Source of the DNA: Eledone cirrhosa
Taxonomy: Eukaryota
NCBI GenBank assembly: GCA_964016885.1
Contig: OZ024741.1
Location: forward strand, 407,154,001 to 407,218,000
DNA: 64,000 nt
Reading direction: 5' to 3'
Part shown: positions 1,998 through 61,923 of the stretch, piece after piece
Position numbering within the stretch: the stretch's first letter is position 1
How the letters are laid out: each line of letters opens with the position of its first letter
The notes under the pieces: model-generated
Told to the model about the DNA's origin: nothing
Seen by the model: the letters and a program-made list of their open reading frames with translations, nothing else
The model's database searches: none
Program-made: the position numbers and the translations under genes

Positions 1998-2190
1998 GGA
2001 AAATGTTCAAGATCCCGACGGCAGAGATCAAGCCGTTTCGACAGCTATTTCTGGACGGAAGTAGCGGTCGAAACGCTTGAGCTCTGCGTCGGGGTCAAAC
2101 ATTTTCCTATTTCCAACTCTACTACCCTAAGTATTGAGTACTCTGGTGCGTTATGGTCTATCTGGTTCCTTACCACCCCTCCTTCGTTTT
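1998..2190. mobile_element. (TA)n-embedded fold-back element, family A (Penelope-like terminus); copies at 2552-2703, 14811-14917, 28904-29105, 52340-52400, 53778-53972
   Basis: Inverted arms of about 55 bp contain TAGCCGTC GAAAC GGC..GCC GTC GGGGTC (hammerhead 3' half), plus a unique tail with TGAGTACT. (TA)n on both sides. Confidence 0.75.
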
Positions 2191-3383
2191 ATATATATAT
2201 ATATATATATATACATATATATATATATATATATATATATATATATATATATATATATATATATATATATATATATATATATATATAAATATATATATAT
2301 ATATATATATATATATATATATATATAAATATATATATATATAAATATATATATATATATATATATATATATATATATATATATATATATATATATATAT
2401 ATACATATATATATATATATATATATATATATATATATATATATAAATATATATACATATATATATATATAGAGAGAGAGAGAGTGAGAGAGAGAGAATA
2501 TATATATATATATATATATATATATATATATATATACATATATATATATATGAAAAAGTATGACCCCGACGGCAGAGCTGAAGCCGTTTCGACGGCTACT
2601 TCTGGACTAGTTGTCTCTGTGGCCGAACTGTAGGTACTAGAGACGGTGGAGATCCTGGTCTTGGGTTCAATCCTGGTCAAGAGGTACATGTAAAATGTTC
2701 AGTTATATATATATATCTTCTCTTCTCTCTCTCTCTAGTCTGCATGAAGAACTCAATGTAATCCGTATGTTGAAAATGTTGTAGATTAAAATAAATCCCG
2801 GAAAACAATAAAACATTAAAAGGAAAACAGAGTCATGATATAAGTTAAAACAATGAAATAAAAAATCAAGTCATTAGAAATATACTTCACTGCTTGATGA
2901 TCGTTTCTAGGTGATGATAATACATCGTAACTATACCTCGTAATCGATCTATGTAAGGTTAGTTACAAAATATCAAATAAGGAGAATATTTACTTACATG
3001 CAATCGACCATCGTATGATCGGTGAGGTGTCCAAATGAGTTTTCTTTTCGGACAGACTGTTACTGATGTATTAATACACCGTACTTTGTGTTGCTACCCC
3101 ACTGCCAAAATGGGTTAAATATACAGATAACTTTTTAGTGGTCCTCTGTGTCGGAATATAAGGACATCACTAAAGACATAATTTAGACTTACGGGAGAAT
3201 CTAATACAGGAAAGGGATTAACAGTGTGATATAGTTCATCTGTTGGTGTATCAGATGAGACCAAACAAATTGCTAAAACATTGTACCGAGATAAATTTCA
3301 TTGACATTTTCTTCGTGAAATATTAGAAACTCAGAATCAACGAGGGAAATATTAGACGGTCTCAATTTTCTTCTATAAATAAT

Positions 3384-3568
3384 TGTTTCTACTTTTGGCA
3401 CAAGGCCAACAATTATCTCAGTGTATTACTGGTACTTTATTTTATCGACCCCGTAAGGAAGAAAGGCAAAGTTAACCTCGGCGGGATTTGAACTCAGACC
3501 ATAAAGGGCCGTAACTCTTTGCTGTAAACCATAAATGAGACTCTCTACCGATACTGCCAATCCACCGT
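3384..3568 (-). mobile_element. tRNA-derived SINE, full length, with TSD
   Basis: Minus strand has A-box-like TGGCAGTATCGGTAG and B box GAGTTCAAATCCC. TSD CTTCTATAAATAAT at 3370-3383 and 3569-3582. Confidence 0.9.
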
Positions 3569-4025
3569 CTTCTATAAATAATAATAGAAAAATAAACGGC
3601 AACGAATTGACAGAGTCGTTAGACGTCGGATAGAATGGTTTGCAGTATCGGTTTCGACACTCTCTTCTCTGAGTTTAAATATCACTGATGTCAACTGTAC
3701 TTTCATCCAATTGAGATTATTCCTCTCTTTCTCTTTCTCACATCCAATCTCTCACACTATCATTCTCTGGAAGAAATCTTCTGTAATCACACCTGGTGAT
3801 CAGTTGGGCTTCGCCATGTTTAAAGGATGCCTTAACGCTTTAACATTTAAACCGGCCAAAGTTTTCTCACCGCTTTCTATTCAAACTGGCTATAACTGGC
3901 CATTCATACTGCTGTTAAGGTAATTTTCTCAAAATAAATAATATGAAAATCTCATAGATTTTATATTATGTGAGATATTATGTAAGATAAAGTCTTTACC
4001 ACAAAAATACAATAATATATATAAT

Positions 4026-4215
4026 TGTTTCTACTTTAGGCACAAGGCCAGCAATTACCCAGTGCATTACTGGTACTTTATTTCATCGACCCCGAAAGGA
4101 TGAAAGGCAAAGTCAATCTCGGCGGGATTTGAACTCAGATCGTAAAGGGACGTAACTCTATGCTTCAAAGCATGGCGTCCGACTCTCTACCGATACTGCC
4201 AATACACGGCCCTTT
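4026..4215 (-). mobile_element. tRNA-derived SINE, full length, with TSD
   Basis: Same family. TSD AATAATATATATAAT at 4011-4025 and 4216-4230. Confidence 0.9.
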
Positions 4216-58914: not shown

Positions 58915-60565
58915 TAATACTACCACCAATACTACCACCTATACCACCACCAATACCACCACCAATACTACCACCTATACCACCACCAATACCACCACCA
59001 ATACCACCACCTATACCACCACCAATACCACCACCAATACTACCACCAATACTACCACCTATACCACCACCAATACCACCACCTATACCACCACCAATAC
59101 CACCACCAATACTACCACCTATACAACCACCAATACCACCACCAATACCACCACCTATACCACCACCAATACCACCACCAATAATACCACCTATACCACC
59201 ACCAATACTACCACCTATACCACCACCAATACTACCACCAATACTACCACCTATACCACCACCAATACTACCACCTATACCACCACCAATACCACCACCT
59301 ATACCACCACCAATACCACCACCAATACTACCACCTATACCACCACCAATACTACCACCTATACCACCACCAATACTACCACCAATACTACCACCTATAC
59401 CACCACCAATACTACCACCTATACCACCACCAATACCACCACCTATACCACCACCAATACCACCACCTATACCACCACCAATACCACCACCTATACCACC
59501 ACCAATACTACCACCAATACTACCACCAATACCACCACCTATACCACCACCAATACCACCACCTATACCACCACCAATACCACCACCTATACCACCACCA
59601 ATACTACCACCACCAATACCACCACCAATACTACCACCAATACTACCACCAATACCACCACCAATACCACCACCAATACCACCACCTATACCACCACCTA
59701 TACCACCACCTATACCACCACCAACACTACCACCAATACAACCACCTATACCACCACCAATACCACCACCAATACTACCACCAATACTACCACCAATACC
59801 ACCACCAATACCACCACCAATACCACCACCTATACCACCACCAATACTACCACCTATACTATCACCAATACCACCACCTATACCACCACCAATACCACCA
59901 CCAATACCACCACCAATACTACCACCAATACCACCACCAATACCACCACCAATACTACCACTAATACCACCACCTATACCACCACCAATACTACCACCAA
60001 TACCACCACCAATACCACCACCAATACTACCACTAATACCACCACCTATACTACCACCAATACTACCACCAATACTACCACCTATAGCACCACCTATACC
60101 ACCACCAATTCTACCACCAATACTACCACCTATACTACCACCTATACTACCACCAATACCACCGCCAATACCATCACCAATACTACCACCAATACTTCCA
60201 CCAATACTACCACCTATACCACCACCAATACCACCACCAATACTACCACCTATACCACCACCAATACCACCACCAATACCACCACCTATACCACCACCAA
60301 CACCACCACCTATAGCACCGCCAAAACCACCACCAATACCACCACCAATACTACCACCTATACCACCACCAATACTACCACCAATACTACCACCTATACC
60401 ACCACCAATACCACCACCTATACCACCACCAATACCACCACCAATACTACCACCTATACCACCACAAATACCACCACCTATACCACCACCAATACCACCA
60501 CCAATACCACCACCAATACTACCACCGCCGCCACCACCACCACTACCTATACCACCACCACCACA
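58915..60565. repeat. 12-bp minisatellite ATAC(C/T)ACCACC(A/T)
   Basis: About 135 units; they give the PPIP and TTTN ORF artefacts. Confidence 0.95.
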
Positions 60566-61267
60566 CTACAACCCCACCACCGCCATCACAGGAAAAGTTT
60601 ACAGCGTTTCACTATATCGTGGAAGACTTTCCTCGGACGTTTTGTATTGATTTGCTTCAGCGTCACACACACACACACACACACACACACACGCAATGGC
60701 GCATAATCCACACATATACACACATTGCACCACATCGGATAGTCGCATATATATACTCCTCTTTCTCTCTCTGACTCCATTGCATACACATAGCAACACA
60801 CACACACACACACACACACCTTTCACACTGTTCAGGGTGCATAAAACACACACACACACCTGTTTCAGAGATCAGGGTGCATAAAACACACACATACACA
60901 TATATATACACGCTCTTTCACACACACACATAGCGTTAGTTACCTTGTGTATAACGCCGTAATTCCCGGTGTCGCTAAATAACACACCCACACACACTTC
61001 CCACTGGCGCATACTAGATATACACACATATACATATATACACATAAAGCCCATGGTCGTACTGGATACACACACACACACACACACATATACTGCATAT
61101 ATATATATATATATATATATATATATATATATATATATATATACTGTATATATATAATAAGCTCATGGTCGTACTAAATACACACACACACACACATACA
61201 CACACACACAATTATATATATATATATATATATATATATATATATATATATATATATATATATATAT

Positions 61268-61686
61268 ACAATATATTAATAAATGGAAACTGTATTTATA
61301 AAACCATATTTATTTTATTATACATATTTCAAGGGCAACCAAGGCAAATTATGGTGCGCTTTCATCAAATAAAATACAGATTTTTTTTTATAAATAAATA
61401 TTGACATACCCACTATCCAGGAAGCTCCAACCGTTAAGGTTGTCTTTTTTCCGGGTATGTCAATATTTATTTATAAAACAAATCTGTATTTTATCTGATG
61501 AAAGCGCACCATAATTTGCCTTGGTTGCCCTTGAAATATGTATAATAAAATAAATAAGGTTTTATAAATACAGTTTCCATTTATTAATATATTGTGTATT
61601 TACTCGACTAACTGTTGAGTGCTTTATATCAGTTATAAAAATGTTTAAGCTAGTTGAATCCCAACAAATTAAATATAACCTCTGCA
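61268..61686. mobile_element. (TA)n-embedded family C element with inverted repeat (61269-61411 vs 61453-61594); relatives at 13525-13690, 14985-15205, 21555-21930, 43325-43457, 61745-62036
   Basis: Near-identical sequence among copies, hammerhead in each arm, (TA)n flanks. Confidence 0.8.
61487..61552 (+). ncRNA. Minimal hammerhead ribozyme, family C (inverted partner at 61311-61376 has C3>U)
   Basis: Same fold as 21822-21887. Confidence 0.8.
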
Positions 61687-61923
61687 TATATATATATATA
61701 TATATATATATATATATATATATATATATATATATATATATATATTTAAAGGTTAAACAAGGTTCAATGAATAAAACAAAGAATGAGTTTTACAATTGAT
61801 TGGAAGCACTCAACAGTTGGGGTTTTCCGGAGTTATTAATATTAATTCAAAATATTAACAAAAATAGATATTCGTGACTGAATCCTAACCATCTACTATG
61901 TCAGGGTATGTCATGCATCATCT

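What the first reader, a model, noticed from the sequence alone, without database searches (positions are those of the whole stretch)
2135..61812. Shared TGRGTRCT motif at a fixed position in the 3' tails of otherwise unrelated ribozyme elements
Seen: read on the ribozyme strand, most families follow the order hammerhead, AT-rich spacer, TG(A/G)GT(A/G)C(T), about 30-65 nt, (TA)n. Family A: TGAGTACT (2135, 29052, 53919). Family B: TGAGTACC (8379-, 28432-, 11603). Family C: TGAGTGCT (61616, 21618-, 61805-). Family E: GAGTACTC (26071). Family F: TGAGTGCT/TGGGTGCT (13431, 56959-). Family G: TGGGTACT (52275). An orphan tail has TGAGTACG (56646-). The flanks do not align between families. Inference: a conserved cis signal, e.g. 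for RT or endonuclease recognition, 3'-end definition, or a second RNA structure. I do not know of a description of it.
Basis: partly seen in the sequence, partly recalled or inferred. Interest (0 to 1): 0.75.

Follow-up and report, generated by a model that had tools for sequence, protein, structure and literature searches.

The report
Twin hairpins set Penelope insertion ends
The short motif shared by unrelated repeats is one strand of a small bulged hairpin found twice in Hydra-type Penelope jumping genes of this octopod-like genome, and also seen in coral and sea-cucumber elements; nearly every two-armed insertion ends once just before each hairpin, so the pair likely tells the element's enzyme where to start copying on each DNA strand, which would explain the long-puzzling one-sided tail of these elements.

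Summary
The motif is real; it is enriched in 800 kb of held-out DNA. 12 of the 14 cited sites belong to it; E and G are chance matches. The elements are truncated 3' ends of Hydra-clade Penelope-like retrotransposons. The motif is the 3' strand of a hairpin, RCUC-stem-UN-GAGY-RCU, with a covarying outer pair. Read-through copies carry two such hairpins between hammerhead and start codon. Mapped insertion ends lie 4-9 nt before a hairpin (13 of 16 ends, background 23%), and 131 of 132 two-armed insertions use each end once. The hairpin also occurs in two metagenome families and, by eye, in 4-5 of 6 published Hydra consensi (coral, sea cucumber, another invertebrate). Neptune- and Poseidon-type tails lack it. 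Likely role: binding sites that position two reverse-transcription starts; untested. Its bulge pattern matches the arginine-sandwich motif of TAR and 7SK. My paper searches found no description. The scan reported the twin hairpins earlier on other DNA of this genome (e1-8837782, e1-8668526); I re-tested that here.

The parts
53900..53926 (+). Family A hairpin 1 (ACTC/GAGT basal helix, TT bulge, ACT) in the 80-nt tail of a fold-back Hydra stub at 53771-53971
2116..2142 (+). Family A hairpin 1, stub 1998-2189
29033..29059 (+). Family A hairpin 1, stub 28904-29106
28432..28453 (-). Family B hairpin 1, stub 28395-28596 with a complete hammerhead core from 28519
8379..8386 (-). Family B: only the 3' half of hairpin 1 is left; the fold-back junction removed the 5' strand (stub 8334-8459)
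11588..11610 (+). Family B hairpin 1, decayed copy, with no (TA)n within 65 nt
61602..61623 (+). Family C hairpin 1, stub 61269-61685 with hammerhead core from 61495; parent ORF not linked
21618..21640 (-). Family C hairpin 1, stub 21572-21928
61805..61833 (-). Family C' hairpin 1, stub 61746-62034; parent ORF not linked
13416..13438 (+). Family F hairpin 1 (single-U bulge), stub 13261-13475
56959..56981 (-). Family F' hairpin 1 (one G-U pair in this copy), stub 56922-57165
56646..56682 (-). Orphan hairpin (ATTC/GAGT, TT bulge, long upper stem); parent unknown
18238..18274 (-).
52275..52282 (+). Family G 8-mer: chance match, not end-linked (stub 52006-52311)
26070..26077 (+). Site E: chance match, not in a tail and without a partner strand

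Best explanation
The motif is the 3' strand of a small bulged hairpin that Hydra-clade Penelope-like elements carry twice between hammerhead and start codon, and each hairpin likely serves as an RNA binding site that places the element's reverse transcriptase-endonuclease so that copying starts 4-9 nt upstream of it. Shown: hairpin pattern, twin arrangement, end offsets, one long and one short end per insertion, restriction to Hydra among the ORF-linked families. Inferred: the protein nicks both strands of a (TA)n target; each nick primes one cDNA through a TA microhomology, one before hairpin 1 and one before hairpin 2; the two cDNAs join head to head, often in a self-complementary hammerhead stem. 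The tail is the RNA between the two starts, so it carries hairpin 1 and never hairpin 2. Because hairpin 2 lies beyond the element's own end, the template must be a read-through (tandem) or circular RNA, and the solo stubs in this window would be dead ends.
For: Two discrete ends per family, e.g. A 66 and 68 of 166 mapped ends, F 11 and 19 of 41, O 18 (+10 four bases earlier) and 19 of 64. Read-through copies show a second hairpin just after the long end in A, O, F, H and G. A descriptor finds a hairpin 3-10 nt after 13 of 16 modal ends against 23% at other positions. In F and H the loop holds 71-106 nt while the 5' strand keeps its offset, so structure, not linear spacing, is conserved. Across 28 hairpins the four basal pairs form in 27, 28, 28 and 28 cases; the outer pair is A-U 12, G-C 14, U-A 1, U-U 1 (shuffle mean 12.6 Watson-Crick, 0 of 100000 shuffles reach 27). 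With a fixed 2-nt bulge 59 of 81 upper-stem positions are Watson-Crick, against 13-19 in the four other registers. 131 of 132 two-armed insertions in 11 families have one long and one short end. Twin hairpins occur in both metagenome Hydra families found (4 loci). Read by eye in File S7 of PMC8557442: clear in Hydra-2_Amil, Hydra-1_Ajap (twin), Hydra-2_Ajap and the 5' end of Hydra-1_Crog (GCCC/GGGC), weak in Hydra-1_Amil. Hydra-linked tails have it in 6 of 6 families; Neptune-linked tails in 0 of 5 and Poseidon-like tails in 0 of 2. In vitro, an anole Penelope protein starts cDNA internally at two sites that bound the tail and needs RNA 3' of them (PMC11167929).
Against: No binding or initiation data exist for any Hydra element; the in vitro work is on another clade. 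3 of 16 ends miss the descriptor: B long end (degenerate GCAC/GTGC without a bulge, offset 9), f7 (offset about 14, n=2) and F' (n=1, G-U copy). The descriptor was written after seeing the data, and the 5' strands were picked by eye. The families share ancestry, so the shuffle values are not probabilities. The motif is not evident in Hydra-1_Obim. Strand evidence is weak: G-U against A-C is 8:3 (6:1 among true 2-nt-bulge hairpins), and minimum-energy folds favour the sense strand in 11 and the antisense in 16 of 28. Predicted basal pairing is below 0.4 in 6 of 28 local contexts at all four pairs. Families C, C', F', G and the orphan were not linked to an ORF.
Confidence: 0.62

Rival explanations
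1. The hairpins act in single-stranded DNA: the GIY-YIG endonuclease recognises them in over-long cDNA or second strand and cuts 4-9 nt away, trimming the two arms.
For: Craig et al. ascribe the tail to endonuclease-mediated resolution (PMC8557442). The D. virilis endonuclease needed the tail for recognition (as cited in PMC11167929). Bacterial Ssn GIY-YIG enzymes recognise ssDNA hairpins by sequence and structure (PMC11893778). Fold energies do not favour the sense strand.
Against: The tail ends of the anole element are RT starts on an RNA template in vitro. Most modal ends sit on a TA microhomology with the target, as expected for priming. G-U wobbles lean to the sense strand.
Confidence: 0.17
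2. The hairpins direct RNA processing or mark transcription starts: the RNA is cut or begins just before each hairpin, and ordinary TPRT starts at the resulting RNA ends.
For: In family O, 11 of about 23 5' junctions in the 400 nt before the ATG fall within -14 to +9 of hairpin 2, and 3 more at -12 or -13 of hairpin 1. The hairpins lie in the 5' UTR, where Penelope promoters are described.
Against: One RNA has one 3' end, yet 131 of 132 insertions combine both ends. Family A shows no such 5' clustering among 14 copies. The clustering also fits an RT that stops at a protein-bound hairpin after one full unit.
Confidence: 0.12
3. The motif is an inherited relic or serves translation or transcription only; the ends are set by nearby TA microhomologies.
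For: All ORF-linked carriers are one clade. Most ends lie on a TA. Hairpin 2 is 18-62 nt before the ATG in O, A, F and H.
Against: The flanks and loops do not align between families while stem, bulge and offset persist across phyla. The tails hold many other TA dinucleotides that are not used as ends.
Confidence: 0.07
4. Chance resemblance of short words.
For: 2 of the 14 cited sites are chance matches; 11 of 600 permuted motifs reach the cluster count of the original motif.
Against: Held-out enrichment, covariation, register-specific upper stem, fixed offsets and recurrence in other phyla.
Confidence: 0.02

Closest known systems
Hydra clade of C-terminal EN+ Penelope-like elements (Craig et al. 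2021, PMC8557442; passages, section 11, supplement parts 52-53)
   Same: Single ORF of about 710-720 aa with RWK-like, DKT, CxCX5C, CxxC and CxH motifs; hammerhead in the pLTR; (TA)n targets; inverted truncated copy with a one-sided tail.
   Different: The parts read describe no RNA element in the tail. Tails here are 60-135 nt rather than 30-40. Units are longer than 3 kb in family A (3531 bp).
Poseidon element PAc of Anolis: internal initiation (Frangieh et al. 2024, PMC11167929; parts 1-2 of 4 read)
   Same: Two internal RT starts bound the tail; RNA 3' of the starts is needed; the protein is predicted to be a dimer.
   Different: Other clade; the starts lie inside the ORF in an AC-rich stem-loop; no twin hairpin or conserved motif is named in the parts read; one start per strand was not seen in vitro.
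Arginine-sandwich motif of HIV-1 TAR and 7SK SL1 (Pham et al. 2018, PMC6189040; passages)
   Same: A pyrimidine-led 1-3 nt bulge followed by G-C and then A-U pairs, with a paired purine before the bulge: the pattern that forms U23.A27-U38 in TAR and U40.A43-U66 in 7SK.
   Different: Here the bulge is on the 3' strand above a basal helix (loop on the other side) and is followed by a conserved unpaired RCU. No homology is implied and no structure was determined.
Ssn GIY-YIG nucleases and their NTS hairpins (PMC11893778; passages)
   Same: A hairpin with a conserved flank read by a GIY-YIG-bearing protein.
   Different: Bacterial, single-domain, acts on ssDNA; no bulge pattern in common was tested.

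Membership tests
Hydra-clade PLE | RWK-like N-terminal motif and DKT in place of DKG | tested here: met
   RLRWR and SDKTGN in families A and O; R.RW and DKT conserved across 109 aligned proteins; definition
Hydra-clade PLE | C-terminal GIY-YIG with CxCX5C linker, CxxC and CxH motifs | tested here: met
   CNCPDRSIC, YIGL, CNLC and CKH in family A
Hydra-clade PLE | Hammerhead in the pLTR | tested here: met
   Cores seen by pattern in B, C, F, G; A has a U3-A8 core, O a CAGAAGA variant. No Rfam hammerhead model matched among the rows shown; cleavage not tested
Hydra-clade PLE | (TA)n insertion, inverted truncated copy, one-sided tail | tested here: met
Hydra-clade PLE | Length under 3 kb (typical) | tested here: not met
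   Family A unit is 3531 bp because of a long 3' UTR; the paper says 'generally'
Hydra-clade PLE | Placement in the Hydra clade by RT phylogeny | not tested
   No tree built; assignment rests on diagnostic motifs. Window families C, C', F', G and the orphan were not linked to any ORF
Nematis or Neptune PLE (my first label was Nematis) | CX2-5CxxC linker and CCHH motif | tested here: not met
   The motif-bearing families have CxCX5C. Neptune-type families of the same genome have CX2-5CxxC and lack the hairpin
Arginine-sandwich motif (TAR/7SK) | Bulge begins with a pyrimidine; the second pair after it can form a triple | tested here: met
   Bulge starts with U in 23 of 28; the pair next to the bulge is G-C in 28 of 28; the second pair is A-U in 27 of 28, the exception lacking a bulge
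Arginine-sandwich motif (TAR/7SK) | Base triple formed and arginine intercalated | not testable with these tools
   Needs NMR, crystallography or binding assays; candidate conserved arginines R35/R37 and R486/R488 (0.91-1.0 of 109 sequences)
Known Rfam RNA family | Match at gathering score | tested here: not met
   Window: only a tRNA-like hit at 18727-18784; six read-through loci: only sub-threshold microRNA models, nearly all on simple repeats

The most novel reading that the evidence does not exclude
Hydra retroelements carry two TAR-like arginine-sandwich hairpins that dock the two halves of an RT-endonuclease dimer through the conserved KRxRWK or RxR motif. From one (probably circular) RNA they launch one cDNA into each strand of a TA repeat: a two-start, hairpin-ruled priming mechanism conserved from corals to octopods and portable to any RNA.
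Probability: 0.27. Interest if true: 0.85.

Novelty: new variant of a known kind. Interest (0 to 1): 0.68.

Why it matters
How Penelope-like elements, the sister group of telomerase, make their inverted copies and one-sided tails has been open since the structure was described (PMC3846280, PMC8557442). This gives a minimal conserved cis-element and a numeric rule: one start 4-9 nt before each of two hairpins, one per strand. The existing in vitro assay (PMC11167929) can test it directly. It also predicts that only read-through or circular RNAs are templates, which would explain why tandem copies are needed. If it holds, it offers a short tag for directing RT-mediated insertion into TA repeats.

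Tried and rejected
My first label, Nematis, was wrong and was dropped after an earlier scan note and the definition. Splice-site readings were rejected by inspection: no GT before GAGT in A, B, C or F, and GAG is not a usual acceptor. The Rfam scans gave nothing relevant. The repeat finder was swamped by microsatellites. The first fold-back screen was dominated by simple repeats. After filtering, 86 tails of 20-160 nt in 33 clusters were left, 10 of which matched the linear regex; several of the other clusters are SINE or chance fold-backs. No relatives in viral contigs. No RNA holder was listed for the family A junction, so no reads were laid. The homodimer job on residues 1-200 gave no verdict. 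The monomer fold had not finished and was not used. No ORF link was found for family C in 30 loci or G in 25 loci. No read-through copies were found for C, C', F' or f3, so their second hairpin is unseen. Neptune tails share a bare ACUC 5-9 nt after an end but no partner strand within the tail; no Neptune read-through copy of those families was recovered. Fold z-scores of ten single tails were mostly weak, -0.25 to -3.1. Strand assignment by fold energy was inconclusive.
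Full report
Observation. All 14 cited 8-mers exist. Ten lie 37-62 nt before a (TA)n run and G lies 29 nt before one; 11603, 26070 and 56653- have none within 150 nt. The window is microsatellite-rich animal DNA from a 3.0-Gb assembly; an intermediate-filament exon at 46989-47540 and SINE tails recalled as octopus-type suggest an octopod. In 800 kb of DNA taken at fixed positions outside the window, TGRGTRCY sits 25-70 nt before (TA)n in 28 copies and 9 clusters, against 3.7 and 2.9 for permuted motifs (0 of 600 and 11 of 600 reach these values). 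GAGYRCT gives 50 and 18 against 6.6 and 4.9 (0 of 600 for both). The motif is real.

What the elements are. Each is (TA)n, inverted arm, direct arm, tail, (TA)n. Long copies tie family A to an ORF end, F to another, and B to ORF starts and ends. The ORFs have RWR, DKT, CxCX5C, CxxC and CxH, the definition of the Hydra clade (PMC8557442 section 11). I first called them Nematis; earlier scan notes named Hydra and I checked it. A homologue search gave 2049 proteins at E<=1e-30 among 7996 scored. The inverted copy and optional tail are known Penelope features. A young subfamily of A forms head-to-tail arrays of 3531-bp units; in L235 and L237 they end at the long end.

The motif is half a hairpin. 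Upstream of it lies RCUC, complementary to GAGY, then an upper stem and a 3'-side bulge. In 28 hairpins (24 from this genome, 4 from metagenome loci; 5' strands chosen by eye) the basal pairs form in 27, 28, 28 and 28 cases. The outer pair is A-U 12, G-C 14, U-A 1, U-U 1; the second is C-G 25, U-A 2, U-G 1. The bulge starts with U in 23, and the loop ranges from 5 to 106 nt. With a fixed 2-nt bulge, 59 of 81 upper-stem positions are Watson-Crick against 13-19 in other registers. Shared ancestry inflates the shuffle test. Six hairpins are predicted to fold weakly in local context.

There are two of them. Read-through copies show a second hairpin just beyond the long end and before the ATG: A, O, F with an 89-nt loop, H and G. 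In B it is degenerate. Modal offsets from end to hairpin, short/long, are A 8/6, O 5/6, F 6/8, B 6/9, G 4-6/9 and H 7/6; short ends only: C 7, C' 8, f3 5-7. f7 deviates (about 14, n=2). A descriptor written afterwards hits 13 of 16 ends against 23% background. Of 132 two-armed insertions in 11 families, 131 have one long and one short end, one has two short ends and none has two long ends, although the two ends are about equally common.

Beyond this genome. Both Hydra families found in metagenomes (4 loci) have twin hairpins between hammerhead and ATG, and the 3' copy in L239 ends just before hairpin 1. Of the six consensi in File S7 of PMC8557442, read by eye, four show it clearly (two from sea cucumber, one twin; one coral; Hydra-1_Crog with GCCC/GGGC), one weakly, and Hydra-1_Obim not. 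Tails linked to Neptune-type ORFs (5 families) and Poseidon-like ORFs (2 families, weak tblastn links) lack it.

False members. G's TGGGTACT is not near a mapped end and varies among copies; G's end-linked hairpins are GTTC/GAAC and TCTC/GAGA. E lies in a different element from the hammerhead upstream of it and has no partner strand. A further member lies at 18238-18274 minus.

Mechanism. An anole Penelope protein starts cDNA internally at two sites that bound the tail, needs RNA 3' of them, cuts both strands and is predicted to be a dimer (PMC11167929). The simplest reading is that each Hydra hairpin is the binding site 3' of one start, that each target strand primes at one of them through a TA microhomology, and that the two cDNAs join head to head, in short A copies mostly inside hammerhead stem II. 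Since hairpin 2 lies outside the inserted copy, the template must be read-through or circular RNA, as proposed for hammerhead-cut Penelope RNA (PMC4209133). All of this is inference. The rivals are ssDNA trimming by the endonuclease, RNA processing or start sites (5' junctions cluster at hairpin 2 in O but not in A), and a relic. Strand evidence is weak.

Likeness to TAR. The invariant positions (U-led bulge, then G-C, then A-U, with a paired purine before the bulge in most cases) are those of the arginine-sandwich motif of TAR and 7SK (PMC6189040). Hydra proteins keep R35/R37 and R486/R488 in 0.91-1.0 of 109 sequences. This is a lead, not a result; one word search of scan notes did not return it.

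Novelty. The elements, the tail and internal initiation are known. Six paper searches and Rfam gave no description of this hairpin. The library lacks most subscription papers. Papers seen: PMC11167929 parts 1-2 of 4; 10.64898/2026.07.22.740005 parts 1-2 of 5; PMC8557442 passages, section 11 and supplement parts 52-53; passages only of PMC3846280, PMC4209133, PMC6189040 and PMC11893778; the D. virilis endonuclease result only as cited. Supplements of the others were not read. The scan reported the twin hairpins before on other DNA of this genome; that is not independent support. Verdict: a real, apparently undescribed cis-element of a known retroelement clade that makes an old mechanistic question testable. 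Interest 0.68.

Noticed in passing
window 46989-47540 +: Exon encoding the head and coil 1A of a cytoplasmic intermediate-filament-like protein (label recalled).
   Followed up: no
window 30028-32201: 60-bp tandem array, 36 copies, 95% matches; the unit holds TGAGTACC followed by CTGATGA-like letters on the minus strand, with no hairpin partner seen.
   Followed up: no
window 26187-26222 +: Possible hammerhead with a swapped G3-C8 core in the element that holds site E (by eye).
   Followed up: partly
   Followed up: partly
L231, L232, L233, L235: Head-to-tail arrays of full-length family A units (3531-3546 bp, up to 99.97% identical to the reference unit), many genomic hits with a 784-aa open frame: a recently active Hydra element.
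   Followed up: partly
L062, L077, L078, L355, L367 (3' ends): Neptune-type tails begin with ACUC followed by a GUGU/ACAC-type hairpin 5-9 nt after an end: possibly a clade-specific counterpart of the Hydra signal.
   Followed up: partly
L051-L078 3' UTRs; L081-L100: Hammerhead cores with U3-A8 in place of C3-G8 in a Neptune family and in Hydra family A.
   Followed up: no
L161-L190: 5' junctions of family O copies cluster at hairpin 2 (11 of about 23), so many copies are about one unit long.
   Followed up: partly
window 18727-18784 -: tRNA-like hit just above the Rfam gathering score, probably a SINE head.
   Followed up: no
window 17426-18031 -: Fragment resembling the AP-endonuclease domain of a LINE (label recalled).
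   Followed up: no
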